Assembly (NCBI GenBank): GCA_036172245.1 | Contig: JAYWIR010000002.1 | Location: forward strand, 1,550,001-1,614,000 | Direction of reading: 5' to 3' | DNA from: Raillietiella orientalis | Lineage: Eukaryota | DNA: 64,000 nucleotides | Shown here: piece by piece, positions 1 to 58,600 of the stretch | Layout of the letters: each line of letters starts with the position of its first letter | Numbering within the stretch: the first letter of the stretch is position 1 | Translations under genes and position numbers: made by a program | The notes under the pieces: model-generated | What the model was told of the DNA's origin: nothing | Seen by the model: only the letters and a program-made list of their open reading frames with translations | Databases searched by the model: none

Positions 1-50
1 ATTTTCGGGGGTGAGAGAGAGGGGTCCCTCGGAGGGAATACTGCACCAAC

Positions 51-8624: not shown

Positions 8625-8642
8625 CTATGATGATGATGATGA
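8625..8642. repeat. (GAT)n microsatellite
   Basis: tatgatgatgatgatgag. Confidence 0.6.
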
Positions 8643-10375: not shown

Positions 10376-10601
10376 AGGCTCCTTGTTTACTCCCCTTCGG
10401 GGAAGCCCCTCAGAGGAGTAAACAAGGAGCGGTTCTTCTCGGGGTTTCTTCCCGAGAGTACAGAGAAGCGGACTCTATATTCGGGGTCTTCCTGGAGTAT
10501 TCGTTCTTTTCCCCTGACCTTCACACGCACCCTCGGGTGTCGTGACAGTGTCAAAGAGCCTTGTGAGCCCCTGTGGCGGCATTGTTGAGCCGCTCCGATG
10601 C
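10376..10601 (+). mobile_element. 3' fragment of the structured repeat family
   Basis: ccccttcgggga..cagaggagtaaacaaggagcggttc..cggactct..cttcctgga..acacgcaccctcgggtg..ctccgatgc matches 48365-48696 and the 33.7 kb copy. Confidence 0.65.
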
Positions 10602-13396
10602 TCTAGGAGGCTGCGGAGTACTTTCTGAGAACCAAAAAAGGAAGAAAACTGAGAAGAAAAAAAGTTGGAAGGAAAGCAGCACCCAAGATTTTCATCATCC
10701 TAAACCAATAGCAACGATTACCTGGTGCTAATGGCCTTTAACCCTTTCGGTGCGGAGCTCACCAGATTGAAACGTGCCTTATTGACGGCACGCGAGTCGC
10801 AGTTGGATGGAGTGCTTTTTCGCGTGCCGAGTACCCGATTGACTTCATATCGTGCTGATTAAAGTTATTATTGTAATTGTTTACTTACACCACACTGAAT
10901 AAAATATCTTCATTTATCCCAAACATATATTATTCATTTAAAAATTATGATTGTAGTTCGAATAAACCAATAATTCATTCACATTTTTAAGATACCACAA
11001 AGATATGATAAATTCTATACGACCCCGAGAAAACACGAGAATAGCCGATATAAATAGAATTTTGTTTACTGTCGTTGCTAAGGGAATTATAAGAACGTAA
11101 GTGTATGTGTCCATCTCAAACATGGATAGTGCTAACTTATGTTGCGTGAACAAGATAAAAACGTTTGCCAGAAGCGTCTATGCGTCCACAGAATTCAAAG
11201 GGTTACAGGGAAAAGGGAAAAAAGGCAGCGGAAAGGGTGCACATGGGGAAGCAAGGGGGAGGAGGGGAAGATGGCCGGAAAGCATGTCGTTTCTGAGTGC
11301 GAGTTTCTTGCTTTCAATCCTTTCCAATGTCTTCCTCCTCTTCGCTGCTTCCCGTTCCAATCCTCCGGGACGTTAAAAGCGAGGAAAGAAAGGGAGGAAG
11401 GATGAAGAGTGAGGACGAAAAGAACCTGCGAAACCTCCTGGGTTTTAGTTCAAGTGAGCAAGTTTTGCTGATTGAAACGAATCAAAACCTCGGGGAGCGG
11501 CCCCATGGCCCCACTTCCTCCGTTGAGACTCGCTTCCTCAACGGTAGCACAGGCTGCGCTTCCAGATCGGCTGGGGAGAGCCTGGAGAGTTGACGTGCTG
11601 CACACTGGCTAGTGAAGGCACTCTTCCTGCTGGATCCGTGGTTCCAGCAGGAGGAGGTGGTGCATCAACAGAGAGAGGTGCTGAGCTCTCATTCTTCCGT
11701 GCTGGAGTTTCTTAGACCTTCTGCACGTGTATCTTTCTGCGTGCTCTTCACCGTCTTTCGAATGAAGCTCAGGCAGCAGAGTCGAAATGTCCTTCTCCAA
11801 TATGGGGCGCGTTCCGCCGGAAGGTCTCGAATGCTGGAAGGAGAGGGAAATCAATGAAGGATTCTGATTCTCAAAGGGGATAAAAAACATCACCTATACT
11901 CTCTCGTGGACATTCCGCATTACGAGACGTAACTAATATTTTGCTGCTTTTCTGGGCCTCAACTCCATAGTTCGCTGCATGATCATAAATCAACAAGTAG
12001 CCTTCGCATCTAGAGCCTTCCGGACAGCAATGGGAATTTTGTTTTCATCGCGAATCATATTTAATTCCCTTCCCAAATTAACATATTCTCCGAGTAGTTG
12101 ATCTTCGTCATTTGCATTAAACTGAGGATATTGCCTCTTATTTTTTTCCCTATTTTTAAATGAAACCCAACACTGACTGCGTTTTTACCTTCCCCGCCTA
12201 AAACCTGCAAGGCATTCAAAATAACCGGCCCATTTTCCGTTTTTACACGGTCCAATATTAGATATTCTCGTTCAGTGGAAGCAATGGAAGAGTTTGAAAA
12301 AAGCAGTGGAAAAGTTACCTCGCCGACATTAGAAAGTAGCCGGATCTCTATCGTACAAAGTATTTCAGTAAAAACACAGCGTCCATCAGCGTCACAACAA
12401 GTTTGCTCCTTCACTTTTTTAAGGAAACGCAAATGTACATTTGTGAGAATTTGGCGCGTAAAAAACACGCTTGTGAAAGTGAAAGCGTACCGTTGTTGCA
12501 ACAAGGCTAAGTAAAGTAGTCTGTATAAATGTGGTAGGAGTAGATGTTGAAAAAATAAGCAACGATTCGAGGATGAGACAGGACATCCGAGCCTGTTCTA
12601 TTTTTCTCACAGCTTTCAGAGCCTCACCCACACCCTCTCTTTACGCTTAGGCCTTCCCTATTTCGCAGCCGCAGCCTCAGTTCCCCTCCCCTCCCTTCTG
12701 GAGGGAGGGCAAGGCTAGAAACAAGGTCGTCAGAGCCTCTGCCCAGAATAGGGCAGCAGGCCATCTCAGTAGCAGCAGCAACTTTCGGTGGGGGCATGGA
12801 TTAGTGACGGGACAGGAAAAGTGAGGAAAAATTCGAGTTGGGCAGGGGATTTAGAAGGGGAGCTCACACTTGACCTTTCTCGACACATCTTGGGAACTTC
12901 TTCGAGCCTGCCATCCAGCTACGAAGCAGGTGCCTGGCCTACAATGGCTGGATAAGGGCCGTGCCGTGCACTTACCGGAAGGTCTACTTGTTCCAGGACG
13001 GGTCACGGCCGAGCATTCCCGTGTTTACGGGATGCTCACACTCGTGCTGCACCCTTCGCTGGTGCACGACCCGCGTGCTTCCGCCACCTTCCGCAAGTCT
13101 CTCCTCTCCTCTATTCGCGCATCCCCTTAAGGGGTTCCTGACTCTTGCTTGAACAGGATTTCTCCTTCAAGGGCTGACCTGCAACCTCCTTCTAGTCAGC
13201 GGCCTTGCCGAAGTGCTTCGCCTGGGATCTCCTCTTCCCCTTTCCGCATCTTCTGCGCTTCCTCATGAGATCGTGCGTGCTGCTGCTGCTGCTTGGCGCG
13301 GCATGTGCGACAGAAAGCACATGGTAGAGTGTGTCGTCCTTCGAGACGTCTTTGCCGGTCTAGGTGCCCTAGGGAGGCTAGAGAATGCAAGCTCGT

Positions 13397-13670
13397 GTCG
13401 GAGGCCATGTGGCCACGGCCTCTACGTGTGGCAACGAGCGTTGCGGGCTCGAATACTCGGAAAGACACTACGCCGAGAAACCGGTGCGCCGTGGGTTCGA
13501 CTTCATCCCGCTAGATGACGCTGGTTGGCCTGCATTCGGGTGCAGCACTGGTAGCGGTTCAAACTGATGCCCCTAATGAGGGTCCGGAATAGGGAGTCGA
13601 CCTCTGGGTCTTTCCAGGAAACAGAATCAAGGAGTTCTCTTCGGAGTTCCCCTTTGGTTATGCAAAGGAT
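13397..13670 (+). mobile_element. 5' fragment of the structured repeat family
   Basis: gtcggaggccatgtgg..gcgggctcgaatactcgg..agatgacgctggttggc..cattcgggtg..gggagtcgacctctgggtctttccagg aligns with 47903-48130. Confidence 0.8.
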
Positions 13671-16600
13671 CCATCTTTCCCTCCTCGTGGATGGACCCTC
13701 CGTCTCGTACCAGGAGCTGGTGGATTGATGATGCTTCTCCACAGTGCATCAAGAATAAGCTCCTGCCAATGCCATCCTACCAGTGCGGAGGTCGGCGTGC
13801 AGTGTCCTTAGGACGATTAAACAAAATTGGGTTTCGACTCAAGGGTCATGTGGGGGTCCTTCGCCTGCAACCGAAAGAAGAGCTCCCCAAACACGTTAAG
13901 GAAGGCGCATGGTATTTTTTTTTTCTTTCTCTGCTGATCCGGGACGCTTCCTTATAGCGAATAAATAAGCATGCTGAGCGGGGACTGACATCCTAACAGA
14001 ATCCTACACAGGTGAGGGAGGACATAATTCGATGTGCAGCTGGTGCATACAGCGAGAGACCTAGGGTGATAAAGGGATAGGGGCAATCAGCAAACAAAAA
14101 AAAAAACAAAAATAGATAACGGTGAAGGCTCACCAGGTTCCAGTTCTTCTGGCTCATAGTGCCGCTCGATGAGGACGGTGACCTTTGCATCTTCCCGCTC
14201 CCCATAGCGGCACAGAGATGTACACGAGGAGCAGAAATTCATCCTCCGCTAGCGTTGTTCCACCCCAAAACTAGCTTTCTGGGTGCTGAGGAAACGCCAC
14301 GAGATGGCACCTGGCGAGAGTCCATCTTGCACGAGTTCTTTAGAGTGTCCTCCGGTTAGAGAAGCGACCCAGTTAGCACAAAGGGAGTTTAGGGGATCCC
14401 GCGGAATGGATCTTTCCCATCCTCGCCTGAAAAGTTTCTCCGAAACTGCCGCCCCCTCTTCACTCTGTGAGGACCACAAGTTCTCAATGCCCTCGCAGCA
14501 CTGCTGTCTGCTGAATGCGGATGGGTAGCAGGGCGCTGTTCAGACATAAGGAGGGAACTACCTGGAACTTACCTAAGAGGAGCCCAACACCCTCCTGACG
14601 CATCAGCCTCCTTACGTCCTCGGAATGGCCATATCGTCTAGCTGGACTATCCCTTAGGAGTTCGGTGATCCATGAAATGGGATACAGATGAACTTACTCC
14701 TTGCCGGTCTACCACTGTAGTTGTTTTCCTTCAAGAAAGACAGAGCTGCTGCTGAAGACAAAACGGATGCGCTGGTACGTTTCTTCCGGTTCTGGATCTC
14801 TGAGGGGGACTCTTGCTACTAGATGGAGTGCGAGGAGCATCGCTTCCGGACTCTCTCTTGTCACGTGTTGCCCCCGGGTGTCGACTGTATTCTGCCATTA
14901 TGTGTTGAGCTTCGCCATGAGGTGCAAGAAGGTATACTTGCTTGGGTAAGAGGAAGGTGGGGGAGTCCTTCATCCAGATAAACGTGACTACTGCCCTGTG
15001 GCACCTCCTCAGATCAGGTGAGTCTTCTCTCTTGTGAGTCGTCTCCTGCTACTGCTGCTCTTTCGTGACGACGATGCAGCACGGGACATTTAAAGCTCCA
15101 GAGCAGTGAGGCTGACCACTGAGGACTGGAGAGGATGTAGCAGGTGATCAGAGACTCCTACCTCAAGATGAAGGCCGAGCAGGGTTAAAAAGTGCAGGTG
15201 AAAAAGCACATCGCTCATATAGACGGAAAATGCTTGAAATAAATTCTTCACTTCCTGAGAATTTTTTTTGACGTGACATCTATCCGGAAGCAATGGAACT
15301 GCCGCCAAGTGGTCACACAGTCGTTTCTCAGCACAGGCAAGCTTCAAATGCAGACAGTTTTGTCCAGTTCGCTGCTGACTTCAGTTTGAGGAAGGGAAAA
15401 GGACTGAGAGCCATCGATAGTGCCCTAATTTGCCCTTCTTTGAGTTCAGGCTGAGAACCATAATACGATCTTTCCTCCAGGCTGGTTTTCCAAAGTAACG
15501 GACTTCGTATTTGGAAGATGAGCGAGACTTTTTCGAAGCTGCGTATCTCGCCTCACGTTGCTACGCCGTCTTGACAGTGAAATGAGTGATCTGAAAAAAG
15601 TGGCAGGCCGACGATAAAGTGATTCACTCCAAAGATTCAAACATGGGGTTTGAGCATGGCATTCATGGATGAATCCGCTAGACTGCAGAGACCATAATCT
15701 GGTCACTGTTTCTAATTTAGCAAAAATTGGTTGGCGATCTCATAAAACAAAATCATCTTCTAATGGAATATCACCGCTGTAGACTTTTTGAAAAGGTCTT
15801 TTGCAGTTATAACAGTTGGTATTCTTTCTTTGTCTGGCACTGCTTTCCACTATATAAAAATATGTTTGGTCATCCTAATCTGAATTACTTCATCTGTTAT
15901 TACCCATATAAAGTAAATGCTTGTGACGTTCTCTTCACATGGAGAGACAACATACCGATGATTCCAAGTTAATCTATTCAATGCATACATTCTTGAGGAA
16001 CACAATCACGTTCTTGGAACGCAGGAATTCCAACTGGCACGCGATTTTTTTTTCTGCCACGAATGCATTATCGTGCTATGTCTAGGTTTCTAGCAAAGGA
16101 GAGAATAAAAACGGAAAGTTGGTATTTCAAGCGACAGAAATCAATTAATTATTGTTTACTGAACGCACCAGGTTTAGTGGTTTGAGGAATGCATAAAAAA
16201 ACACAAAGAATGGCGGGATTGCTAGTGAACATCGTTTTTAAAGTTAAAAAAAAATTCAGTGTTAATAACCCAGAAAAAAGAGACATTTTTTTTTTTTTTT
16301 TTGCTTGCATACAATGCACGATATAGTGCAGCAAGATCTGTATTTTGGACGTTACCCAATTATTGACCTTACAGAAATCCAAATAATTTCTTTTAAACGC
16401 TGCGACACCATTATTTGTCCTACAAGAAGTGGATACTATAATTATTATTCACCTGTGTGCAGGAAATGTATATGAATAAAGTGTATTGGAAATGACTACG
16501 ATCTAGAAAATGACTTGGTCCTTCAGGCATCCTAAAAGCAGGCAACATAAAGCGCGTACTTCTTTCTGAAAACTCTGAAGTAGGAGGCAACTCTGACTTG

Positions 16601-32742: not shown

Positions 32743-33076
32743 CTAGAAGTCATAACATGAAGATGGGGGGATGCACTTGTCTAAAAAAAAGATCAAACAT
32801 GTCTAAACAGTAGCAGCAGCATCCAATTGCATCACACACACACACAACAGCTAAGGGGAGAGCATTTCTCGTCTTTCATGATGACTTTCATCGCTGGGAT
32901 TCATGGAGGAGGAGTTTGTCGAACAAGTGCCATGGCACTTGTTCGACAAACTTCTACATGCCTTTGCTCGCGTTATCTTAACCGTCAAAGGAACGACATC
33001 TGCTCCAAAGGGTTGAGTCTACGAATTTTGATATTCGTCGAGTCTGAAGCCCGTCGTCAGAGTTGAGGGTGTACGT

Positions 33077-33099
33077 AAAAAAAAAAAAAAAAAAAAAAA
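33077..33099. repeat. Poly(A) tract
   Basis: Run of about 23 A upstream of the first sialyltransferase coding exon. Confidence 0.8.
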
Positions 33100-33684
33100 T
33101 GCTGTACCTGAAAGCGAAATGTACGAAAATAACAATTTTAAACCATAGAAGTCAAAGTAGTGCATTTGTGTAGCATACAGCGCATTTTCTTCCATTTGAA
33201 ATCAGCATTTTCATACATACATACATATATATGATGAAAGTCATTTACTTTTGTGCACATAATAACAAATTGATGTAGTTGAAAAGGAAACCATCATGAA
33301 AGAAAAAAAAAAAAAAATGAAATCTACCATCCACACTTTAATACTCGATTCAGCTGTGCTCGAATAGCAATCCTCATTGCTCGAATTCCAGGATTCTATT
33401 TCACCCTTTTTCACTTTCCTTTGATTCCCTAATGGTAGCACAGATTGGTGATGGACGCATGTGCCGAATAGTGAAACAGTAATCCTGATCTAACATTTCT
33501 TAGTGAGCTATTGCATCTTCCTATAACCACAGAACGGAATCGTCAGCCGTTTGTAATTATTAAATAAAATTGAGAAATGTAGTAGGAAATGCAGTTACAG
33601 TAGATGTTTTATTTTTTTACTTTATTTATGTTTTATTTTGAGGATGATGGAAATCCTTCTTTTCTGTCCTCGCAGTTCTTCGAC

Positions 33685-34428
33685 ATGGTTCCACGCCACC
33701 CGAGGGTAGGTAATTCTTCAAGATAGGGGGTGCTCCGGGAGGGGTCCGCCCTAAGTATCAAGGAGTCCTTCCTTGATACTTAGGGCGTGAAAGGAACGGA
33801 CTCAGAGTCCGTTCCTTTCACGCCTAGGGAGGGATGCCCGGAAATGGAGATCACCTCCACCCTGGTTGTCTCCGAAAGGGAATCCAGAAGGGAAATCTCC
33901 TTCCTTATTCTTTCCGAAAAGACGCTTCGAGGGGTCCGCTCCAGTTTTTCTTCCCTGAAGGGAACCCGGAGAGGATCCCCCTCAAGGGATCCGCTCCTGT
34001 TTTTACTCCTCTGAAGAGAACCCCGAAGCGACGCTTCCGAAATTCAGAAGGACGCAGCTTCCCCGAAGGGATCGGCTTGCGTCTCTGAACTCTCTGCAGA
34101 GGTGGTGGCGACACACCTACTCCGTCAGTACGACGCGGAGGGTCCCACCGGAATGGGGGGTCCGTTCCTTCACAACCGGAGGGGGAGCTCCCCACTCCTT
34201 GATTCCTGGAAGGACCCGAAGGTCGACTCCCATTTGTCCCGGTCCCCATCGGGGGGGGCATCCGGTTTCAACAGCTACCAGTGCCGCACCCGGATGAATG
34301 GAGACCAACGAGCATCATCTTGAGGGGTGAACTCGGAACCCACGACTCAATGCTTCGATTCCTTCGGAGTATTCGGACCCATGACGCTTGGTGCCGCCAC
34401 GCGTGGACATCACCGTAACCACACGGCT
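33685..34428 (-). mobile_element. Near full-length copy of the same structured repeat family, reverse orientation
   Basis: The reverse complement shares blocks with 47900-48697: atgggagtcgaccttcgggtccttccaggaat, tttcggaagcgtc..ttcgggg, ttcggagacaaccagggtgg, gaagaattac. Head reads gccgtgtggttacgg..gggtccgaatactcc. Confidence 0.85.
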
Positions 34429-35546
34429 AAAAAAAAAACGCTCTTCCTGGATCTCATTTGCTTCTTGTAGCATCTCTTTTGTCTTTTTCTAGTGTTTCAA
34501 ACGGATGACATACCAGATGGTACGACCTTTGTTTTTCTTAAGAAAAAAGTTCTTTTGAAATCCTCGGTTGTCTAATCCGAAGCAACAAATTACGAGAGCA
34601 TTTTTTTTTTTTTTTTCTGTGAAAATTCTATGATTGCCAATAGAATCGTAAAAAACAAAATTGCGATCGTAACACTTAGCAGACTACCTATCCGAACACT
34701 ATTTAAGAATACAAAACGTCTCTGAATTTCCACGATTGGTTCTGCTTTGCTAGTCTTTCTGGTTTCGATAATATTATAAGGGTCGATCGACTCCCACTTT
34801 CAAAGTCGCCTCAAACATTGGCCTCATGAAGAATGCTCTCTTCACCGACAACCCGATGGTATTCTTCACTTCATGCACCAAGCCTGGATAAGCCACAGGT
34901 ACTCTCACACCACTGTATGGAAATGGGTTCATGCTTTTCTTTCTATCCCTCCATCTTTTCTTTTCTACCCGCTGTGCTTTGCATTCACCAACTTTACCGA
35001 TGACAATTTGCGAGATCTGTAGTTTCGTCAATCCGGGACAATTGGAACACGAGCAATTTGATGAACTTTGATCCCTACTTAGAATTGAGAGTTCGAATTA
35101 AGAGCAAAACTTTCAGCGTTCGAGGAAAAGAGTTTCATGAAAGTTTTCAATGAATTCTACAGCCTTCATTATTTTCTTCCGTTCACTTGACTTTTGTCGT
35201 TCCAAGAACCATTCTCCCATGGCTCATCCAACCACACTGCTCATATGTGCTTCAGCTAACACAACCAGCAAGAAGTACACTTCATATGTAAAGAGTATGG
35301 TTTTCGAATTCAGATAAAAATTTCCATTTCACATCTGTAATGGTTAATATGACACATCAGTTACAGTTGCCCGTATCCATCAAGCACTTGTGAATCCTTG
35401 CTGCTGTTGCATTGCTGTTTTGAGGATATCTCGCAAGTTGAAGTTTGATTTTTCCTTTTTCATACATCACCTCCTCCTCAGGCATAGTACATGATAACTA
35501 ATTCCATATTACTTCCAAAAACTGTTCATCAGTTTTCACATTTTTG

Positions 35547-39207: not shown

Positions 39208-39390
39208 GGAGTCACGATGATTTCCTCGATGGTTGCAGCGGAGCTTTGGAACAAAGGTTGAGTTCTTCTGCGGCCCAAGTGGCAGCAGAAAGAGCAGTGG
39301 TGCTCAGTTGTGCAAAGATCGCTGCAGCGACACGTCAGGGTGACGCGAAACGGCGAATGTGGCGGCGTCGACGATGGCGCGCCTTCCTCA
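39208..39390 (+). repeat. Left arm of a ~180-bp inverted repeat (partner 41510-41689)
   Basis: ggagtcacg..gatcgctgcagcgacacgtcagggtgacgcgaaacggcgaatgtggcggcgtcgacgatggcg..ccttcctca is the reverse complement of 41510-41689, with a core of about 60 bp identical. Confidence 0.9.
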
Positions 39391-41509: not shown

Positions 41510-41689
41510 TGAGGAAGGCTCGCCATCGTCGACGCCGCCACATTCGCCGTTTCGCGTCACCCTGACGTGTCGCTGCAGCGATCTTTCGCAACTGAGCACC
41601 ACTGCTCTTTCTGCTGCTCACCTGGGCCGCAGAATTCAACCTTTGTTTCAAAACTCCACTGCCACCATCGAGGAAATCAGCGTGACTCC
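41510..41689 (-). repeat. Right arm of the ~180-bp inverted repeat (partner 39208-39390)
   Basis: tgaggaagg..cgccatcgtcgacgccgccacattcgccgtttcgcgtcaccctgacgtgtcgctgcagcgatc..gtgactcc. Confidence 0.9.
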
Positions 41690-41935
41690 CGAAGTAGGAA
41701 TCCCTTTCTGTCAATCGCAATCTAAAACTTGCAGATGCTTCTCTCCCTATCAAGAGAACGCAGCGAACGGAAAGCTGCTGCATAACATCCAAGCCAACGG
41801 GAAGATCTCCCTAGCGCTTTTACTAGTAAGAGGGCAATACGTCTTGGTCATGGCGACATGTGCAGAAACCATTACTGCGCATGACACGACCACCACTTCG
41901 ACTGGTCAGAATCCAGAAACCTGGCAGACCAACTC
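41690..41935 (+). pseudogene. Decayed inverted duplicate of the Ddc terminal exon plus its upstream intron end
   Basis: SPYQENAANGKLLHNIQANGKISL..VRGQY matches the real [30 protein letters not shown] (49020-48920, minus). The acceptor cctatcag has become cctatcaa, and similarity continues to ggcagaccaact (real ggcagacaaact). Confidence 0.85.
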
Positions 41936-43397: not shown

Positions 43398-46300
43398 TCA
43401 TTCAAGCAGGAGCACAGGAAAGCATGCAACATGCATGTGAGAACCTGCGCTTCCTGGAAATGCAAACCCAACCACAGCACTAGGAAACTTACCTGCTTGG
43501 CCCATTCTCTCCAAGAGAACCTTATGCAGCATCTCATCACACACCATGCCAACGCAGCCGAGAGCAAACGGAAACTGTGCTGCAGGAACGCCGGCAATAG
43601 CTTCGAGACAAAGCATGTGCTGCAACTCGTAGCAGCCTGGAGCAGCTACGCACAGTCCACAGAAAAGGCACTTCAGGAAATTCTGCCAGTCACCATCGTG
43701 CCACAGAACCTTTTCTTCGTCGTAGTGACGCTAAGCAACAGCCTGACCGTCGTGCAACCAGTTCTGAACTTACCTTCAACAGCACGATGAAAAACTGCCA
43801 ACAACTGCTCAAGTTCACAGGGAGGGAATGCACGAGCAACAGTAAGTCGGACATCAGTTCCGACAACGCCAAACAAGCTGAGGGCTGCTTCTCCCTTTGA
43901 AGGAACCAGGTCAGCAAGAGAGACAGCTCTTCTTGGGTGCAACCTGGAAACACCTTTGCCCGACTCTCAGCAACCGAATGTGCCCACACCGAGGATACCT
44001 GCACAAAAAAAAGCACAAGGCGTTCTCGAGAGCTTTCCACAAACAATCCAGGAATGAGGTTGGTATCTTGGACCATGGAAGATGCCAGGCAATACAACAT
44101 GCGGTTGAAAACGGAATCTTCATTGCATGCAGTGCTGCCTAGAGTTCCAGAAATGTAGCACTGAGCTAAGTGGCACAAGTGCTTCCGAGAAAAGTGTCGC
44201 AGTTGCTGTGATCTGGACCCTGTTCGATCCAAATGACAGAAAGCAGCTGCAAACAACTTACCATCAAGCTTTCTATCCTGTTTCCACAGCAATCTTAGAT
44301 TACATACGCACTGCTGATGCAAATCAAGCTGAAACTCCTGGATGGAATTGTGAAGGATGCAGGCCAGGGCAAAAACGTAGTCAAAAAGAGGCATCCGAGC
44401 AGATATGTTCGAGGCCACCTAAAGAAATGAAATTTGAAATTATGCACAGGATGCTGCATAGGAGACAGACTTGCAGCAAACACAAAAGGCAATCAGTGTG
44501 ACTTCCTTCTGACATGGGAACCAGCAAATGCTCTACAAATTCGGCCACTGATAACAAATCCAATTCCAAAAGTTCTGTCAGAAACTGCACATATACTGAT
44601 TGGTTCTTGCTGTCCACATCAGCCAAACATTGCAACAAGGCTTTCCCAAGCATGGAGCAGGTCTTCACTGTGGGGTCAGCATCCATGTGACAAAAAGTGG
44701 CTATCTTGCATAACAACTCCAGAATGATTGGGATATGTGAACTGTGCTGTACAGCACAATCCACAGTCTTTTGAATTGTGAGTTGGGGAGATTGCCAGAC
44801 TAACTGCAGAAACTGCTTCAACAAGTGCTGATGTAAAAAAGAAGAATTCATAAGCCCATGGTAATCAAGTAATCACTTGATACTCTTTTGTCAACATTCC
44901 ACAATTCAATTGACAATTGCAAATCTTGCAAATTGTCAAAAAACAGCACTTGCAAATTGGTGCAAGATCTACAAGAGACACAAAGCTCTGTAACTAATGA
45001 CTGCCACAGGAAAGAGGATTGCAGAAAATTGAAACAAGAATACCATACCAAATAAGTGCTGCATAACACTCACATGGGAAGAAGAACTGTGCCCAGTCAA
45101 CTGATTGAAAAACACAGTTGCTTGAAGAGCACACCTGTCACTGATTGCCAACACACCACTTTGAATGGCTTTGCTATACTTCTCCAACAGAACCAACTGA
45201 CTCTCGAAAGATAAGGATCCCAATGCAGTCAAGGCGAGCTGGAAACAGCTTTGAATTACTCACTTCACACTGGGGAGAGAACTTACACCACTCATGTTGG
45301 CTTTTGCACCTGCTTCACAGGATAGCACCACATCTAACAGCTTGATGGTGAGCAGCTCACTGAATGAAGTTACCCTCTCTTTTAAGAATTCGATGGTTTC
45401 AGCAGAAGAGCAAATGTTCTCTTCACTCAGCAGAGAAAGCATTAAGTTTTCAAAATCTGCTGTCAGAATCGGGAATCCGCTGCTTTCATAACTGCGTATC
45501 TGCACCAAGTTATTTGCAAAACACGATGCTTCCGACTGCTGCAACACATGCTGCACTATTCTGTTCTGCTTCCACTCTGTAAGGCATGCATTCTCATCGA
45601 TTTCCAACAATTTCATGAACTGCGCCCGGATTAAGAGCAGGACATGCACCTGAGTGCTGCCAACAGTCACAAGTGTATTGTTCCACTCTGTTAGCACTTC
45701 ATGCGTGATTGTGTCACATATTGAACTCAACATTGTCGAGTAAATATCAAATAGTTTTGGGATCCAAGAACTATACTTCGCTTCAGAAGCAGTAACATCG
45801 CAACCAGGGAGATCGCAATAAACCAGTTGCTGAGCGCACTTGGGATTAAGAAGCACTTCCATAATCTCTAATACAGCTAGCAACAATGTTCCCACATTCC
45901 TGTGGTATTCCGAATCCTTATTTCGCTCCTGAGATGAAACAGCTGATATGATCCTTGAATTCATCTGTTGCAATGCATCCGCACATCTCTCTCTCAAATC
46001 TTCCTTCACATTCAACTCATTGCCACTGAAGAGGCTAGCTATCACAAGTCCAAGGATCAAATTGCACAGGAAATCAACTTCAATCTCCAGCCCTGCATTC
46101 ACTTCATGCAGCAGCAAATCAATGAACGTTGTTGATATCCGAAGATCTATTGTTGCAAAAAAGTCTCTGAGCAAACGATTCCATTTTGCTGCCTGAATCG
46201 CCCAAACGTAAACTTTCACTGGAACTGGTTCAAAGAGATTCGTAACAGATTCTAGACCATCTTCAAAAATGCCATCCCTTAAAATGTCCAAATGAAAGAA

Positions 46301-46533
46301 CCACACCTTGTGCAACTTCTCCATAAGGCGGTAGTGATCATAGGAGCACTCCTGGCTCGATGAGCCAACATATGCCTCCAATAAACGAGCCACATAGTCT
46401 CCACCGGTGTCGTCATCTGGAATTCGCAAGCTCGAGAATACTTTCCAAAAATATTACCTTTGTGCCAGGAGTTCGTTCTTGCATGATGAATAAAGATTCC
46501 TTGCAAGGCAGCTACGTCCTTATCGTATTCCAT
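43398..46533 (-). CDS. Large alpha-helical protein (~930 aa), probable Gemin4 (SMN complex) homolog
   Basis: Separate ORFs join in phase across short GT-AG introns: 46457-46417, 45286-45239, 45073-45001, 44883-44828, 44470-44419, 43773-43683, and possibly 43492-43454. The N-terminus (ALQGIFI..EDGLESVTNL..IEVDFLCNL) resembles vertebrate GEMIN4 as recalled from memory (ILHGGFL..EDLFFSVGNM..EDVAFFLDV). Gene structure is well supported; identity is tentative. Confidence 0.65.
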
Positions 46534-47899
46534 GCAAGCACAGACACATGCGTGCACACATGCGAAGCGGATTCAGCTAGCAGGGATGCCATTTGTGAAG
46601 AGCGTACGCGTTGAACTCTATTCACTCTGCAGCTACTTCTTTCGACAAGAATCAGTTCACCATTCGACATTACAATTCGAAGCTGCTACTGCTTTTCAAC
46701 CTCGACTCAAAGTTGTCTCTGCGCGTATCACTCACCTCGATCATGGAAATTTTCGTTATCCCTTATGAGCGTTCTTAAACTGCGATGAAAACACACACCA
46801 GTGAGACCTTCTATTTAGTAAGGAAGCCTTCCGAGTGCTCGCTTTTGCATCGTCTCTTGCACCTTCTCGTATGCAGACAGAATTTCAATTTCGTTATCAT
46901 AATCACTATCTTGGCGAACCTCTATTGGCAAAATGAGATCATGTAGATGGACTGTCTCAAACCAAAATACAACTCTCCCATGATTACTGTCAGTGCAAGT
47001 TATCTGTAGTACGAAGGAAAAAATGCATACAGAATAAGATCCTCGAAAAATTTTCAATGTTGTATGGTCTTTCCTTTTCTTTCCAAATAACATGGGAGTC
47101 CTATTACTGAGATGGGATCAAAACCGACTGCGAATGTTCAAACTGTGTTCTCACATACTGTTGCGTCCTTCTGAAGGTCTTGGTCTATGTTCGAAGATTT
47201 GACAATAACGCAAAAGTTCGTAAGTATTTTTGATTTCCTGATTTAAGGAGGGTCCATAAACCTTGTGTCACTTTCATATTTTGCATACCTGACTTCGCTG
47301 ACCGCCGGCTCAGAACAAGCAAAACAATGTGCCATCCACGAAGACGTGGCATTCTACTAAAAAGTTGCTTAGTTGCTGTGCTTTTTCGTCTCCCAACTGT
47401 GTCCAGGATCTTGTCTTTTATTTGAGCACCCCTCTGATAGAAGGATCATGTATTTCCACTAAAGCGTGTTTTCCCTGTAGATTTGATAGGGACGTTTCCC
47501 TTTTCTCTGTGTTTCCAGCTTATGAACCGCTTTGAATCTCGTTTTGAAAACTCTTCAGTTAGCAAAGCCAATTCTGATCGAAACTTCTCTCATTCTCATG
47601 CCTGCACACATTTAGGAGTCTCCAGAATTTAACATCTGAAGAAAGAATCTAAGGCGATAATTTCCTTTCGGAGTCATGGAGAGGTGCATTCGAAAAATAT
47701 GCTTCCAATTTCTCTGAGTGCATGTTCACAATCTAATGTTCACCGTTGCGTAGATCCTGAACCAGGAAAATGTCAATTTCTGCTAATCTCTCTCGGAACG
47801 TGTCCAGGGGGTGAGCCACACGAGGAGAGTGGACCAATGAAGAATTGTGGATCCATATCCGACGGTGGATGCACTGTCGACATTGCATCCAACATTGCC

Positions 47900-48697
47900 C
47901 GCGTCGGAGGCCTTGTGGTTAAGGCTTCCGCGCGTGGCACCATGCGTCGCGGGTTCGAATACTTCGGCAGATAACTGACGCCACTCCGTCGTTTGGGTTC
48001 CGAGTTTCTCCTGCAAGATGGCGCTGGTTGGCTGAGACATTCGGGCGTGGCCCCGGCATTGGATAAAGCCAGAGGCCTCCCGATGAAGGCCGGAACAATG
48101 GGAGTCGACCTTCGGGTCCTTCCAGGAATAAAGGAGTGGGGAGTTCCCCCTCCTGTGTGCAAAGGAGAGTGGACCCCGTCACCGGGAGATCGCCTCCGGT
48201 TTCAAGATGGAGCAGGAGCCCTCACGGGCACCTCTCCAGTTATTCAAAGGAGCGGACCCCCCTGTTGGGAGGTCCGAGTCGTCGCCTCTCCAGAAGAGTG
48301 CAAGGAAGCAAGCGAGAGCGATCCCCCTGCGGGAAGCTGCAGCGTCCCTTTTGAGTTTCGGAAGCGTCCCTTCGGGGCTCTCTTCAGAGTAGTGAAAAGG
48401 AGCGGTTCCCTTCGGAGAAGTTGAAATGAAGAGGACCACCCCCATTAGGGGGGTGCCCCTCCGGAGAGAATGAGGAAGGAGATTCCCTTCGGGGTTCCCC
48501 TTCGGAGACAACCAGGGTGGGAGGTGCGATCCCCCCGTCCGGGGGGATCCCTCCCCAAGCGTCAGAAGAACGGACTCTGAGTCCTTCCTGGATTCATAGG
48601 GCGGACCCCCATCCCGGGGTGCCCCCAATCCTGAAGAATTACACGCCCCCTGCGAGTTGCCGTGGGCGGAAGCCTTAACCACAGGGACTCCGACGCG
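47900..48697 (+). mobile_element. Full-length copy of a structured non-coding repeat (tRNA-headed, self-complementary ends)
   Basis: Head GGCCTTGTGGTTAAGGC..GGGTTCGAATAC (A/B-box-like). 47901-47939 and 48658-48696 are inverted repeats (34/39 identical). Many internal hairpins. Homologous to 33685-34428, 13397-13670, 10376-10601 and 55125-55650. Confidence 0.85.
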
Positions 48698-48794
48698 ACG
48701 TCGTGAACTCTGTCGAACTGGTTTAAGGTTTTTCTCCCATAACTAGCTCTTTCCCTAGCAAAAGTACGAGAAATGCAACTATCTGGTATTTTAT

Positions 48795-51700
48795 TCATTC
48801 CACTTCAAGGTGCTCTTCGGCGATGATCTCCAGTTTGTCTGCCTGACTACTGATTTCCTTCCAGGCGAAGTCAACGTCTGCTTCGGTGCAGTAACTGGAG
48901 CATACGGAGAATCGCAGAAAATACTTGCCTCTCACTTGCGAAGACACCAGGTAGATCTTCCCGTTGGTTTGGATGTTATGGAGCAGCTTCTCGTTGACTG
49001 CGTTGCCCTCCTGATAGGAGAAAAAGGGTGAGCCAATTTCGGAATAAGTCCGAACATCAGAATAAACAACGAGATACATGGAAGTTTCTTAAATGTTATC
49101 TGTGGCTTTGTATGTGCTGGAAGGGGCGAAATTCGGGGCAAAGAATGAATTCTTTTTGCAGTTCAGATGAGCTGAGGGAGACGCTGATGCTGAGAACTTG
49201 ACACCAGCATTCCAAAAGACGGCTGCAAAAAGGTGAAAAAGAGATGAGGATTGCGCGACGTCCTGAAATCGTGCTGGCTCCAAGAGGCAGCGCCTGTTTT
49301 CAATTCATCTAAACGCAAGAGCGGAGATCACGAGACATTGCTTGGAAAGATTCACGTATTCGCCCTCACTATCGCACGCTTAGAACTGACTTGAGGGAGC
49401 TTAGCGATGTATTCCACGGTCCAATTGTTCAAGCAGGAATTCAGTGACTTGGGAGGCAAGCAGCTCACTGCAACGGGCATCGCATTAGTTGCTGGAATGG
49501 CGGCAAAAGCCTGCACGGTTGCCAACATGGCAAGGTCGTCGGTTTGTTTTTCGTTTCTCGAACCTCCCAATCGATTTCCGGAAAGTTCCTCTCTGGTGAA
49601 CCCATGCCGTTTGGATCGCCCCTTAGGATAAGCACGTCGGACTACTAGGAGCACGTGCGTTACAAGTGAGAGTGCAAGTCAACGGAGGTTCCAGTTCCGC
49701 GGACCTACATCGACTCCGAAGAAGTCGTTTCAAAGTTTCTTTCAACAGATACTTCCATGAAGGTGATGGCTCTTGCAGTAGAGGAATAGGTTCGGATGTT
49801 GCCTCTTTTCTAACCTTGAGTGTGAAGCACACCAGTCCCAAATTCACAGGGAACACGACTTGGAAGCGGAAATCCGCTCGCACCAGGTCTTCGAACCTTC
49901 TTGTCAACGCAGTGTGCTTGCGGACGTGTTCGCGAATGCCCTTTTTCCCATACGATCTCAAGACGAACCACAGCTTCAACGATCGGAACCGTCTCCCTAG
50001 AGGTATCTGCCAATGCTGTGAGTCAGACGAAGAGAGGGCATTAAGGTCGCATCGTGCTTTGAGATTCACCTACCCTGTAGTCTGGTACTTTCCCTTGTTC
50101 CTTGTATTTCAAGTAGTCAGGATCGACGTAAAAAGCCGAGGCGACGTAGCTGGAATCTTTGAACCTGTTATGAAAACTGGGCAGTGAGTCGCACCCTGTG
50201 TGGACGGTTACCAGAGGGCGGAGCAATCGAAGTTCACCGGCATCAGCTTGTGAGGATTGAAATTGAAGGAATCTGCGAGATCGATCCCGCGTGCCAAGTG
50301 ACGGTACTCCTCGCAGAAGAATGCCGTGCCTTGAAAACCGTCGCGCGCACGTGCCTCGCTCTCCTCCGTCGTTACCTACCGGCATACGCCGCGTCCACGT
50401 GCAGCCAGATCTTGTATTTCCGACACACGTTCCCGATTTCCCAGACATTGTCAAAAGCACACGTGTTCGTCGTGCCAAGGGTGGCCACCACCTGCACGAC
50501 AGGGGGTGGCTCTGTTTCAATGATATCTGCCGCATACGTAAAACGGGGTCTTCCCCTCAAGGAGGTCGTTCTTTATGGCCTGCTCCAGCGTGTCGCCTCT
50601 CAGAGAGAGCTTGTCATCCGGCTCCAGCATCCTCATCTTCACGTCGCCGATCATGGCCGCTTTTTGCACAGATGAATGCGCCTGATCTAGAAGACCCGAA
50701 CCCGAGTTATGTACTGACAAACAGTAGCGACGTTGGTTGGCTGCTAGGGGATGTTGCGCAGCGCAGTCATTTGAAAATACTCTGCACTTAACTGGATGTG
50801 TAGGCGCATAGCGTTCGTGAGCTGCTTTCTGTGGTTTGATTACTCTTGGAGTCCTGGACCGCAAGCTTGCTGCGCGCCTTGGCAGCCAGCAAGGCGACGA
50901 AAGTGGCTTCGCTCGCAGTGCCCTTGAAGGTAGGAAGGAACGTTCTTGCGATTCCGTTTCAACATGCAACGGCCACCTGTATCACTCCTCCTCCTTTCCC
51001 GCGGCTTCCGAAAAGAAATTCGGGAGGCAGTCCAAGGGCTCTTCCTAGCCAATCCATCATCTTCATTTCGAGTTCGGTGCACGCAGGACTCGCAATCTTG
51101 AAAATGATTCAAAACCGGAGGTCAAGCAGCCTGCAGCTGTTTACCCAAGAGAATCCGATGCAGCCAATCGCCGTAGACAGGAGCTCTCCTAAGATCGCAG
51201 GATACGAGGAACCCGATGGAAAATACGCGAAGAAATATGGAGAATTCCAGTGTGTGACCTGCAAAAAAAAAAAAAAAATGAGGAGCACGTAGCAGCTGGG
51301 ATCTCTTGCGAGGGTGAGCGGGTCTGTTCCCCGTTCCATGGATAGGGATCGAGCGGAACAGTTTATTGTCATTGAACGCGTGGCTACTCAGCAGAGACGG
51401 CGAATGGATGACGATGACCGTCACACTGCTGCAGCACCGTGAGCACAATCCAAGACCACGGAGTGCACTAAGGTGCGTGGTGCACCAGCGAGCAGCACTC
51501 GATCAGAGAGACGTTAGAATTAACGGGTTGCGTGCATTTCTGCGTTTTCTCAGCCAGCATTCCATGCTCTGGCACTATTCCTCCGGCGGCCGGTTTTAGT
51601 TTTCTTGAGGGAAGAAAAGAGATTCCGGGAAAGTTCGGTCGCGATTCAGTTTTACATGCACGAACCGGGAATGAGCGCCTTTGCATCGAGTGCCAGAGGG

Positions 51701-54900: not shown

Positions 54901-55124
54901 AGGGCAGATTTTCGTTCCCTGTGCTCTCTGGTGAAATCGATCTTTTCAAGGGGCCAATCTCTGCGAATGGCATCGGAAGAATGGGATAGGCAGGAAGCCT
55001 GACTCTTCTCGAGCAGTGCCGTATGAATGCTGAACGATCGCCTGCACTCGCAAGAACTGCCTGAGGTAGAAACTCTTCTTCCCCATCCAAGTGCGTGACC
55101 ATTGGAACAGCCATGCCCGCTTCA

Positions 55125-55650
55125 GCGGCCGTGTGGCTGCGGTCTCCGCGTGCGCGGTACTAAGCTTTGCGGGTTACGTGGAGGATCGACGCCTAGAAAT
55201 AGGTGCGTCGTGAGTTTCTAGTCCCCCTCCCCCTTCCTCCTCGCAAGTTGACGCTGGTTTGGTCTGTCGGCATCAAGTGGGGCACGGGTGGAAGCAGCCT
55301 GAAACTCCGGATGTCCCCGTTGACTGGACGTGATTGGGGTCCTTCCAGACATCAAGGAGTGCGAGTTCCCTTCCAGTTGCACAAATAAAGTCCTAACCTG
55401 GAGCTGGTGAATTGGTGACGCCTCTCCAGAGTGTCAAGAAGCGCGTTGCTCCCTTCGGGGACGCACCCTTTAGAGGAACCGGGAAGCATCCCTTCGGGGT
55501 TCTCCTCAGAGGAGTAACGAGGGGTGGTTTTTCGTGTGGGTTCTCTCCGGAGAAAGGAAAATTCCAGGAGCGGATCTTTTCCGTAATTTCCCACGGAGAC
55601 AACCAGGGAGAGCGCACTTCTTATTCCGGAGCCTTCCTGGATTCATGAGG
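55125..55650 (+). mobile_element. Diverged copy of the structured repeat family
   Basis: Head ggccgtgtggctgcggtctccgcg. Body cgcctctccagagtgtcaag, ggaagcatcccttcggggttctcctcagaggagt, cggagacaaccaggg and ccttcctggattcat match 48283-48597. Confidence 0.75.
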
Positions 55651-58600
55651 TGGTTCCCTCCCGCGGTACCGTCCCACTTCGTGAGCTTCTAGGCGAACGG
55701 TTCTTGAGTACTTAGCGGACCACTCTGTAGAAGCTTCCGGAACAAGAGACTCTAAACATAATTGGAAAGAAGGAAATTTGGAAACCTGCATCGTTATGGA
55801 ATAAGGATAACGGCCTAATGGCCTGAGGTCGCTAAGCTGGCAGCCTTCGTAGGGATATGAAGTATATCGACCTGCGAATTACGGGAGAAACACTCAGCCG
55901 CTTGCAACATGAAGGATACTCTTAAGGTGTGGATAGGATGTTACCCTCTGAACGGAGGCTGTCATTTCCTGGCATCAAGGATCCCTCGGCCTCTTCCTGT
56001 TATTGACTTCCTAGTGGTCCACCCTATAAACGTGAGACGTGCGTGTGCATATCAAAGGCCGTCTCTGATACACTTCTCAAGAGGCCGCCCGGATTCAGTT
56101 TGGTCCTGTTTGTCTGACCGCTCGACTGGGCTGAATTGAGATCGAAGCTGTCTCCGGCCCAACCACTGCCTAGGGGTCAAGAGGCCGGGAAGAGTCCAAA
56201 CCAGGAGAGCGTTCTGGAATGATGGAAGAACGACCACTTGCTCCTCCGAATCGGGCGTCCGCTGGCATTGACCGGCGTGAACATTGACCGTGGACAGCTT
56301 GTGGTTGGCAGGCGGATCCATTCTTAACCCAAATATCTGTCGGAGTGCTGGAACACTGTCGATGGATCCAAAGATATGACCCGCAAATTGATGGTTCGAT
56401 CTTGCTGCGTATCCTGGAGATGCTGAAACTTCCCTATCGTTCGCAAGGAAGGAATAACCAGCGATCGACACACACGTTTTAGTCAATGCACCTTGTAGCA
56501 TTAATACCGTCCGCACTAGAATGGGATTCAGCAAAAACGGTGGTCTTACTAGAGGTTCTGCAACAATCCAGCAGTTCTACAAAGTGAGATTGCCTCTCGA
56601 AGAGTATGAGGTTGGATCAGAGAGGACCGATCTAAGCTGATGGAAAGAAGTCCCTGGGCACCTCAACGATCCCTTTGCCATACAGAGAGCATCGAACGAT
56701 TACGCGCTTAAGACGTGTTCATCACCATGTTCTCACGCTCGGACACTTTTTCAGATGGCATCCCGTGACATTCTTGCGGATCGAGAGCTACGGTCGTCAG
56801 GGTAACCGGCTTATCGAAAGGTTTCCACCTGTGCCTCAGATAAGCGTAAATGGAGACAACAGGAGAATGCATGCATCTGGACCGAATGCGCCATTGGGGG
56901 TCTTGCAGTCGGTGGCTGCCAATAACTTCCAGCGCGGTCACTCCTGAGACAGATTTTCTGAAGATGGCACTGGAGCCTTCTTCCCTTGTTTGTGTTTGGA
57001 ACGAATGGCTTGCGAAATCTACTGCTGCCCAGCTGTTTGAACATTCCACGAAGATTAGGGAATGGTTGCCATACGGAGTGGAGGCGTAACGAGGAGGCAC
57101 ACATACCGCGGTCTGCGTGGCTTGGAAAACCATAGACGATTCAAGTAAGAATGAAATCCCCGTCCTCTTCTAAGAATGGAACGAGACCTTTGAGAATGAA
57201 AATGATTGGCTTCAGAGAGGCCTTAAGGTCTCGAGACGCTAAGGATGTCGATTCGCGGAATCAGGTAATGCTGGATCCACATGTCCTCATGCTGCAAGAA
57301 ACTGCTTCGAAGCTTCCCTATCTGATCTCAAACAAAGAGGTCTCATCTGACTGATGTTTGGAGGTGCAAGTCCTCAACAATTCAGAGCACGACTCGAAAG
57401 ACTGGCGGAAGAACTGCTACAGCAAGCAGCAGCTTCGACGTCAAAGGATACCAGGGCAAACGATAAGAGCAGGAGAGAGCATGGGAAGAGGCCGCGTTTG
57501 CAGTTTATTCTTGCTTCCAGTTCGGAGGTCGTCTATGTGTGACCTAGCCCGCGTATCGTCGAGTAAGCCAAGCGTGTCACACCTGTATAGAGCTGCCGTC
57601 TGTCCTTAGTCTGCCCTTCGTCTGATTGCGTCGAAGATCATCCCATCTGATGGGTCTTTGCTCTTTCTGCGCATATTTGACGAGAAAGGTGCTGATGGCG
57701 ATGTAGAAGAGATTTTCTATTCTCTTTGCTTACGTTGCGCTGTTTGGTGTGGGTGGGAAAGCACGGGATGCTTGTTTTGCCTGGCGGAGTACACCAAATT
57801 CCATTCTGTGCCGATAGCGGAGGAGGGAAGCATGTCTTCTAATTCCAAATCACATTGCGTTGGAATGGAGAGAAGCCACAGGTGCACGCTCGTTTTCGTC
57901 TCAGATGATGCCGATGGTATCTGCCACTGAACGCAAGAACAATGGAAGCTGCGATTTCGGATCATGGAACACAACGTGTCAGTCTATCTCTGGAACAGGG
58001 TGATCTTCGATACTCTGGAACCAAAAGGGAGTACTGAGGTCAGTCATCTCTTACCAACGCAAGAACAGCTTGCAGGTTGGAAAACACACACACACAAGGC
58101 GGTGTCGCTCACCAGCTAGAGAGAGCAACACCTCGTTGGAAGGGTAGTCTGGAAGGATGACATCCACAAGCGGAGATGCTCTTTTCCACCCTCGTAAACG
58201 CCTGATGCTGTCCGGTTGCACGTTCATCTTGCGACTTCTTTTGGTGTCCGCTGCATGGATTCAGTGGATCGGTTAGAAAGAAACACACTATCCCTCCTTC
58301 CCACTCTGTGATTGTCCCGATTGGAAGAGGTCGGATCGATGAAACCTTTCCAGTAGCAGCAAGGTTCTCCGGAACTCTTGTTGCTTGATCCGAAAACCAC
58401 TGTTTGAGCGGATCCCACAAGCATCCTGGCCGCGATCGATATGCAAATCGCTCCAGGAAGCAGCACGAGGAAACGCGCGTTGAGTTCATGGGGGTACTCT
58501 TGCTGGTCCGCGTCCGGTACCCGTCGACACTCCGTTGCCCACGACGACGAGCGGCACCCTTGGAAACGTTCAAGCCGGGAGCCTGCTTTTCCTCAAGAGA

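What the first reader, a model, noticed from the sequence alone, without database searches (positions are those of the whole stretch)
47900..48697. tRNA-headed, hairpin-packed repeat whose 3' end pairs with its own tRNA-like head (panhandle); fits neither a classic SINE nor a classic MITE
Seen: the 5' end resembles a tRNA with Pol III A/B boxes (GGCCTTGTGGTTAAGG..GTGGC..GGGTTCGAAT, loosely tRNA-His-like), and a second B-box-like gggttccgag lies at ~47995. The last 39 nt are complementary to the first 39 (34/39). Three of the five mismatches would be G-U wobbles in the plus-strand transcript, giving 37/39 pairs as RNA. The body is a chain of hairpins: GACC-TTCG-GGTC (48107), CCC-TTCG-GGG (48368, 48485), CACCCCC..GGGGGTG (48437), GATCCCCCC-GTCC-GGGGGGATC (48528) and GGACT-CTG-AGTCC (48572). 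There is no credible ORF, poly(A) tail or TSD. Known: tRNA-SINEs end in A-rich or LINE-derived tails, MITEs have TSDs and no Pol III head, and C(UUCG)G is an extra-stable RNA tetraloop. Inference: a possibly undescribed Pol III-transcribed, closed structured RNA or mobile element family.
Basis: partly seen in the sequence, partly recalled or inferred. Interest (0 to 1): 0.85.

Follow-up and report, generated by a model that had tools for sequence, protein, structure and literature searches.

The report
Ordinary dispersed repeat, one-off inverted end
This is one decayed copy of a GC-rich, non-coding 0.8 kb repeat scattered through an animal-like genome, and the striking "panhandle" is seen clearly only in this copy, so it looks ordinary.

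Summary
The sequence features are real. The first and last 40 nt pair at 35/40, plus 3 G-U in the plus strand, and all the named hairpins sit at the stated coordinates.

The interpretation does not hold. The stretch is copy "A" of a dispersed repeat. Four more diverged copies or fragments lie in the same window. A DNA run of a coded organism gave 95 contig pieces that cover only the element.

The 3' arm is not a constant part of the family. Copy E has a gap exactly where the arm lies, and copy B has at best a vestige. Depth in the public run drops from 16-67 to 1.67 over the arm.

ARAGORN and the Rfam tRNA model do not recognise the head in the three copies tested, A, B and C. The four heads share two hairpins but no cloverleaf.

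Both strands fold equally well, and the strand difference in the consensus fold is explained by base composition. Compensatory pairs do not exceed column-shuffled controls. The sense strand of all three long copies carries runs of four or more T.

Best reading: a non-autonomous mobile-element relic. A SINE-like retroposon is favoured, but the class is unproven. Its one inverted end arose by a secondary event. Interest is low.

The parts
47896..48657 (+). Copy A of the repeat: head and body. The 5' boundary is at about 47897-47900.
   Evidence: X1 pieces start at 47897. Flank bins have zero depth, and the loose ends before 47897 disagree with each other (0.52). The heads of copies C and D align from the same point.
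47900..47939 (+). 5' arm of the inverted repeat. It contains the first conserved head hairpin (GGCCnTGTGGnTnnGGyC). A second hairpin and a B-box-like GGGTTCGAAT follow, up to about 47960.
48658..48697 (+). 3' arm: an inverted copy of element positions 1-40 (35/40). It lies between two short direct repeats, GCCGTG and GTCGTG.
   Evidence: Copy E has a 42-nt gap exactly here. X1 depth is 1.67 in bin 48640-48706 against 16-67 in the body. The head-only profile finds no other solo head in the window.
48698..48722 (+). Remnant of the family tail beyond the arm (GTCGTGAACTCTGTCGAA). It is homologous to the tails of copies B and E, so the element does not end at 48697.
   Evidence: alignment to E. 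(ACTCTGTCGAA against D's ACTCTGTAGAA).
33638..34432 (-). Copy B, nearly full length and about 70-73% identical to A. The first ~8 nt are missing. Its tail is ACCCTCGGGTGGCGTG..GTCGAAGA, followed by a purine-rich block, GATTTCCATCATCCTCAA, and an A-rich run. There is no clear 3' arm.
13394..13780 (+). Copy C: the 5' part only.
55116..55790 (+). Copy D, with several internal deletions. One of them removes the B-box-like motif.
10380..10704 (+). Copy E: the 3' part only. It has the same tail type as B (ACCCTCGGGTGTCGTG ... GATTTTCATCATCCTAAA).
48795..49088 (-). Context: the last exon of a DOPA-decarboxylase-like gene, whose exons reach up to 51957. Copy A lies about 70-100 nt beyond its stop codon and antisense to it.

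Best explanation
The stretch is one relic copy of a GC-rich (55-60%), non-coding interspersed repeat of about 0.8 kb in an animal-like eukaryote.

Shown:
- It is multi-copy and dispersed, with a sharp common 5' end.
- The 3' end varies between copies.
- Some of its palindromic hairpins are shared by the copies.

Inferred class (favoured, not proven): a non-autonomous retroposon of the SINE type. On this reading it is transcribed from an internal Pol III-like promoter in the head and copied by the reverse transcriptase of an unidentified partner element. The supporting features are the conserved A/B-box-like region, the absence of coding capacity, and a purine-rich or A-rich 3' end in copies B, D and E.

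The 40-nt 'panhandle' is most likely a secondary, copy-specific event. About 35-41 nt, equal to the element's own 5'-terminal hairpin, sit inverted inside the tail of copy A between two CGTG-containing direct repeats. The family tail resumes after them. Such a structure fits a template switch or a repair-mediated insertion. It does not fit a designed closing stem.

No function of this copy as an RNA is indicated.
For: Repeat family:
- blastn and nhmmer find copies at 34476-33662(-), 55082-55800(+) and 13343-13883(+), and a fragment at 10393-10493(+), at 70-73% identity.
- 95 X1 contig pieces, 80-99% alike, lie only within 47897-48640. The bins with any depth span 47836-48706, which is 13 of 30 bins. 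The other 17 bins are all zero.

The arm is not a family feature:
- Reverse-complemented tails of B and E, and the inner tail of A, show no significant match to any head. With lenient scoring, B reaches only 5/300, and its direct-orientation score is equally high.
- E aligns to A on both sides of a 42-nt gap that equals the arm.
- X1 depth over the arm is 1.67.
- The head-only profile hits the 4 heads plus A's 3' arm and nothing else at E<0.01.

Shared 3' extension in B and E: two exact matches of GATTTYCATCATCCTMAA.

Not a coding element: no Pfam hit and no homologue.

Hairpins are partly conserved: the consensus fold beats column shuffles, z -5.3 on plus and -3.6 on minus.

The CTTCGG loop motif is sense-biased, 13 to 1 over the five copies in element orientation. 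The copies share descent, so these counts are not independent.
Against: - Class: no tRNA or other Pol III gene is recognised in the three heads scanned, A, B and C.
- No target-site duplication was found for A, B or D.
- About 800 nt is long for a SINE.
- The sense strand has runs of four or more T in all 3 long copies. Pol III should tend to terminate at these (established knowledge).
- There is no 5'-truncation gradient in X1 depth. The window holds one 5'-only and one 3'-only fragment.
- No reverse transcriptase or partner element is in the window.
- Private arm: only 2 other copies (B, E) have an informative tail. B can also be aligned so that a degenerate outer arm remains. Downstream of D there is an inverted match to head positions 51-70, reached by 2/300 shuffles before correction for 20 tests.
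- An ancestral arm that was later lost by deletion between the CGTG repeats is therefore not excluded.
Confidence: 0.6

Rival explanations
1. MITE-like DNA transposon. On this reading the family has terminal inverted repeats and moves by cut-and-paste. Copy A keeps both ends, and the other copies have lost or degraded the 3' one.
For: - The 40-nt terminal inverted repeat at 88% sits exactly at the 5' family boundary.
- There is no 5'-truncation gradient, and both 5'-only and 3'-only fragments exist.
- There are weak inverted-head signals in B's tail and downstream of D: 5/300 and 2/300 shuffles, uncorrected.
Against: - No target-site duplication abuts the arms.
- The family tail continues beyond the 3' arm in A.
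- E lacks the arm, with good alignment on both sides.
- B and E share a further 3' extension of a different kind.
- X1 depth collapses before the arm.
- No transposase is in the window.
Confidence: 0.15
2. Solo LTR, or the terminal piece of a larger element such as an LTR, DIRS or Penelope-type retroelement, rather than a self-contained short element.
For: - The length of about 0.8 kb fits.
- Copies A and D start with TGCCCGC.
- The 5' ends are intact in 3 of 4 head-bearing copies.
- The 3' ends are variable or extended.
Against: - No common CA end or 4-6 bp duplication was found.
- No paired copies flank an internal region, and no gag, pol or reverse-transcriptase ORF is in 64 kb.
- No hammerhead or other ribozyme match was found at E<=10.
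Confidence: 0.12
3. One reading: a functional Pol III transcript of about 800 nt, closed by a 5'/3' panhandle and packed with UUCG-capped hairpins.
For: - Strong fold, z -8.1.
- 3 G-U pairs only on the plus strand of the panhandle.
- The CTTCGG loop motif is sense-biased, 13 to 1.
- The consensus fold is better than shuffles.
Against: - The panhandle is absent or vestigial in the other copies and in X1.
- The minus strand folds equally well.
- The strand difference in the consensus fold equals that of the shuffles, and compensatory pairs are within the shuffle range.
- Copies differ by 27-30% and by indels of 50 nt or more.
- About half of the named hairpins are specific to A.
- A TTTT run lies at offset 454.
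- The 3-of-3 G-U strand bias has a chance of 1/8.
Confidence: 0.03

Closest known systems
tRNA-derived SINEs (SINE2 type; non-autonomous non-LTR retroposons)
   Same: Dispersed, non-coding and multi-copy. The 5' end is fixed and carries a B-box-like GGTTCGAAT motif and an upstream hairpin. The 3' end varies and is purine-rich or A-rich in copies B, D and E. Copies sit in introns and beside genes.
   Different: The head is not recognised as a tRNA by ARAGORN or Infernal, and it has no cloverleaf. The element is about 800 nt rather than 80-600. No target-site duplications are detectable. It has internal runs of four or more T. Copy A has no A-tail and carries an inverted copy of its own head.
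MITEs (miniature inverted-repeat transposable elements)
   Same: Copy A has 40-nt terminal inverted repeats, no ORF and a strong fold-back potential.
   Different: The inverted repeat is clear in 1 of 3 copies with an informative tail. There is no target-site duplication. The element is GC-rich, and the family sequence continues outside the 3' arm. No parent transposon is known.
Highly-conserved-domain tRNA-SINEs of invertebrates (e.g. those described in bivalves, PMC11481361; search listing and abstract only)
   Same: Long composite SINEs made of a head, a conserved body and a LINE-related tail would be the natural home for a family like this.
   Different: The body could not be compared with any catalogued domain.

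Membership tests
tRNA-derived SINE | 5' head derived from a tRNA (recognisable cloverleaf or sequence) | tested here: not met
   ARAGORN found 0 genes. The Rfam tRNA model gave no match at E<=10 in heads A, B and C. The consensus fold shows 2 hairpins only.
tRNA-derived SINE | Internal Pol III A and B boxes at tRNA-like spacing | tested here: inconclusive
   A B-box-like GGGTTCGAAT or a one-mismatch variant is in 3 of 4 heads and is deleted in D. The A-box match is poor. The consensus motifs are recalled, not taken from a call.
tRNA-derived SINE | A-rich, simple-repeat or LINE-derived 3' tail, with target-site duplications | tested here: inconclusive
   Copy A has neither. B has an A-rich run after its 3' extension, and D and E have purine-rich blocks. 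No duplications of 6 nt or more were found in A, B or D. The copies are old, so erosion is possible.
MITE / TIR DNA transposon | Terminal inverted repeats on the copies of the family | tested here: not met
   They are clear in A only. E lacks the arm, B has at best a vestige, and D is uninformative because of a deletion. X1 depth over the arm is 1.67.
MITE / TIR DNA transposon | Target-site duplication directly outside the TIRs | tested here: not met
   the only 7-mers shared by the two flanks lie 30 and 46 nt from the 5' end.
MITE / TIR DNA transposon | Autonomous parent element with the same ends | not testable with these tools
   No genome is held for this window. No transposase is in the window.
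Known structured RNA family (Rfam 15) | Match at the family's gathering score | tested here: not met
   There were 0 matches at gathering score in the whole window. Only sub-threshold hairpin look-alikes appear in the element.
Structured RNA gene (any) | Covariation and strand-specific structure across homologues | tested here: not met
   31 compensatory pairs against 24.6 +/- 4.1 in shuffles, and the strand gap equals that of the shuffles. Power is low, with only 3 sequences.
Catalogued repeat family (Dfam/Repbase) | Sequence match to a library consensus | not testable with these tools
   No such library is on hand. Full-text searches for five element motifs found no relevant paper.

The most novel reading that the evidence does not exclude
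The family, or a young subfamily to which copy A belongs, really is a hybrid. On this reading it is a roughly 0.8 kb Pol III-headed element whose 5'-terminal hairpin is repeated inverted at the 3' end. Either the RNA or cDNA closes into a panhandle used in its propagation, or the 35-nt 5' hairpin is itself separately mobile and inserts with a short duplication. Copies B and E would then be deletion derivatives.
Probability: 0.07. Interest if true: 0.55.

Novelty: new member of a known kind. Interest (0 to 1): 0.15.

Why it matters
Little depends on it. The result removes a tempting candidate for a new class of closed structured RNA. It shows how one rearranged copy of a hairpin-rich repeat can mimic a designed panhandle.

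What remains of modest value is an apparently uncatalogued, GC-rich repeat family of about 0.8 kb. It belongs to a poorly represented animal-like genome. It has a fixed hairpin-bearing 5' end and sense-biased CTTCGG hairpins. Its class (SINE-like, TIR or LTR-derived) could be settled in minutes once the genome is available.

Tried and rejected
- Whole-genome search: no genome is held.
- Collection scans for conserved 20-25-mers of the family:
  - Metagenome contigs: 0 hits for the first pattern, and 1 chance hit for the second (L001, only 21 nt alike);
  - Genome contigs: 0;
  - Viral contigs: 0.
- Sequencing runs: 1 listed holder (X1, DNA?, share 0.06). No RNA holder is listed, so expression could not be examined.
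- Tandem substructure of the body: TRF found none even at score 30, and the self-blast showed only short matches.
- Extended family-level TIR (RC tail against head beyond 40 nt): not significant.
- A head-like sequence in direct orientation downstream of E, which I thought I saw by eye: not significant, 20-46 of 200 shuffles.
- Taxon of the host:
  - the DDC-like gene is 46-54% identical to animal DDCs and sits on a long unresolved branch;
  - the 397-aa neighbouring exon has no homologue, and the Atlas gave only scores of 0.90 or less with low recognition.
  The organism is left unnamed.
- Translating the element to find relatives through spurious ORFs: none found.
- Literature: one full-text search for SINE/MITE hybrids (listing and abstracts only) and one for element motifs gave nothing that matches.
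- The count of structure pairs looked favourable, with 0/500 shuffles reaching the observed values. I discount it because the structure was derived from the same 3-sequence alignment. The column-shuffle control replaces it.

Full report
**Observation.**
- The repeat finder reports arms 47900-47939 and 48658-48697, 40 nt long and 88% complementary. That is 35 Watson-Crick pairs. It also has 3 G-U pairs if the plus strand is the RNA, and none for the minus strand.
- A local-alignment test gave z 16.4, and 0 of 200 shuffles reached the observed score.
- All the named hairpins (GACCTTCGGGTC at 48107, CCCTTCGGGG at 48368 and 48485, and the others) and both B-box-like motifs are at the stated places.
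- The element folds well below shuffles: -388.4 kcal/mol, z -8.1.
- The G-U argument is weak. Only three of the five mismatches are transitions, so all three falling on one strand has a chance of 1/8.

**It is a repeat.**
- blastn of the element against the window finds other copies at 34427-33710 (minus strand), at 13394-13657 and at 55334-55670, with 70-73% identity.
- A profile built from four copies recovers them over their whole lengths, and adds a fragment at 10393-10493. I call the copies A (the finding), B, C, D and E.
- No whole genome is held for this window.
- One public DNA run of a coded organism (X1) was listed. Laid at 80% likeness or better, 95 of its contig pieces fall on the stretch, all within 47897-48640. 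The bins with any depth span 47836-48706, which is 13 of 30. The 17 bins outside have depth 0, including those over the neighbouring exon.
- The identity classes of the pieces (99+/95-99/90-95/under 90) are 7/15/32/41.
- The family is therefore abundant in that genome. Its 5' boundary is at 47897-47900, where the loose ends of three contigs disagree with one another (agreement 0.52).
- Copies A, C and D start at the same point, and B lacks about 8 nt.

**The panhandle is not a family feature.**
- X1 depth is 16-67 across the body but only 1.67 in the bin 48640-48706, which holds the 3' arm.
- Copies B and E share a well-aligned tail: ACCCTCGGGTG[G/T]CGTG, then GTC[G/A]AAGA. Further downstream they share a second block, GATTTYCATCATCCTMAA, with two exact matches.
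- The reverse complements of the B and E tails, and of the part of A's tail inside the arm, show no significant similarity to any of the four heads.
- With lenient scoring, B reaches 5 of 300 shuffles against head A, but its direct-orientation score is just as high. A stretch downstream of D reaches 2 of 300. Neither survives correction for 20 tests.
- With cheap gap extension, E aligns to A on both sides of a 42-nt gap that equals the arm. A's sequence after the arm (GTCGTGAACTCTGTCGAA) matches E's GTCGTGACAGTGTCAAA.
- So in A the arm sits between two short direct repeats, GCCGTG and GTCGTG, and the family tail resumes after it. The element does not end at 48697.
- B can also be aligned so that a degenerate outer arm remains. 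D has a deletion across the site. The count is therefore: 1 of 3 informative tails has the arm, one lacks it, and one is ambiguous.
- A head-only profile finds the four heads and A's 3' arm (E 0.0017), and no other solo head in 64 kb.

**The head.**
- ARAGORN finds no tRNA anywhere in the window.
- Rfam gives no tRNA, 5S, 7SL or snRNA match at E<=10 in the 1.6 kb around A, in 126 nt around A's head, in C's head or in the whole of B. It gives nothing at gathering score in the whole window.
- The consensus fold of the four heads has two adjacent hairpins, with no acceptor stem and no T arm. It has 16 pairs, of which 2 show compensatory change.
- What remains is motif-level. GGGTTCGAAT or a one-mismatch variant occurs in 3 of 4 heads and is deleted in D.
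- The 11-mer GTGGTTAAGGC also occurs in mutagenesis primers for human tRNA-Ser (PMC3299991, passages read). It is present in copy A only; the other heads read GTGGTTACGGT, GTGGCCACGGC and GTGGCTGCGGT.
- A distant origin from a class II tRNA is possible but not shown.

**Structure.**
- The minus strand of A folds as well as the plus strand: -387.8 kcal/mol, z -7.4.
- On the 3-copy alignment (A, B, D), RNAalifold gives -125.0 on plus and -107.5 on minus. Both are better than column-shuffled alignments, at z -5.3 and -3.6. Some hairpin potential is therefore truly shared.
- The shuffles show the same plus-minus gap (-97.0 vs -79.5), so base composition explains the strand difference.
- The number of pairs with changes on both sides is 31, within the shuffle range (24.6 +/- 4.1, maximum 36).
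- The favourable figures are circular, because the structure came from the same alignment.
- Reading the alignment, about half of the named hairpins are not conserved:
  - GACC-TTCG-GGTC is kept in A and B, has its loop changed in C, and is lost in D.
  - GGACTCTGAGTCC is kept in A and B only.
  - CACCCCC..GGGGGTG and GATCCCCCC..GGGGGGATC are complete only in A.
- One real asymmetry exists. CTTCGG outnumbers its complement CCGAAG by 13 to 1 over the five copies in element orientation. The copies share descent, and several sites look like internal duplicates (D2), so this is only a hint of sense-strand origin.
- Runs of four or more T occur in the sense strand of all three long copies. In A the run is at offset 454. 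From established knowledge, Pol III tends to terminate at such runs, before the 3' arm could be transcribed.

**What kind of element.**
- Pfam finds nothing for the element's two longest ORFs, and the 187-aa ORF has no homologue.
- No reverse transcriptase or transposase is in the window. 84 ORFs were scanned. The only families found are host genes: a sodium:solute symporter, SKA1, a GT29 sialyltransferase-like protein, a metallo-beta-lactamase fold and a pyridoxal decarboxylase.
- No direct repeat of 6 nt or more abuts the ends of A, B or D.
- B ends in an A-rich run, and D and E have purine-rich blocks.
- There is no tandem substructure.
- I favour a SINE-like non-autonomous retroposon. The reasons are the fixed 5' end with promoter-like motifs, the variable A- or purine-rich 3' end and the lack of coding capacity. 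The membership tests, however, are mostly unmet or inconclusive.
- A TIR element and an LTR-derived piece remain open. Neither Dfam nor Repbase could be consulted.
- Full-text searches for SINE/MITE hybrids (listings and abstracts only) and for five motifs of the element found nothing relevant.

**Context.**
- Copy A lies 70-100 nt beyond the stop codon of a DOPA-decarboxylase-like gene on the minus strand, with exons from 51957 down to 48795. It is antisense to the gene and beyond an AATAAA that follows the stop (read).
- The gene is 46-54% identical to animal DDCs and sits on a long, unresolved branch. The host is animal-like but unnamed.
- CpG is not depleted: observed/expected is 0.87 in the window and 0.70-0.87 in the copies.

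**Verdict.** This is a real but ordinary interspersed-repeat copy. The feature that made it look special is clear only in this copy and most likely arose by a secondary rearrangement. The reading as a closed, Pol III-made structured RNA is not supported. The residual chance that a young subfamily truly carries inverted hairpin ends is about 7%. It can be settled by a genome-wide census of copies.

Noticed in passing
window 39196-39390 and 41510-41701: A 196-nt inverted repeat pair, 91% alike with a 77-nt core at 99%, encloses about 2.1 kb. It could be a foldback or long-TIR element, or a local inverted duplication. ORFs inside gave no Pfam hit.
   Followed up: partly
window 41746-41833 vs 48928-49018: A 91-nt inverted copy (79%) of part of the last exon of the DDC-like gene lies next to the large inverted repeat, 7 kb from the gene. 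This locus has undergone inverted duplications. That may bear on how copy A acquired its inverted end.
   Followed up: partly
window 33756-33875 (inside copy B): Copy B carries its own internal palindrome (GAACGGACTCTGAGTCCGTTC ... and an inverted CTAAGTATCAAGG block) that is absent from A. This is another copy-specific inverted duplication in this family.
   Followed up: no
window 45263-46453 (minus strand): A 397-aa open exon has no Pfam family and no homologue among longer proteins. The Atlas gave only weak look-alikes, at scores of 0.90 or less. It is probably part of a fast-evolving or lineage-specific large protein.
   Followed up: partly
window 1-10000 and 58000-62000: These blocks have 58-65% GC, against 32-45% in the middle of the window. 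The first block holds sodium:solute symporter exons (1943-5316, minus strand) and many long spurious-looking ORFs on both strands.
   Followed up: no
window 33065-33099, 37745-37779, 34601-34616 and others: Many A or T runs of 13-23 nt are scattered through the AT-rich part of the window. One T10 directly abuts the 5' end of copy B. They may be tails of other retroposons.
   Followed up: no
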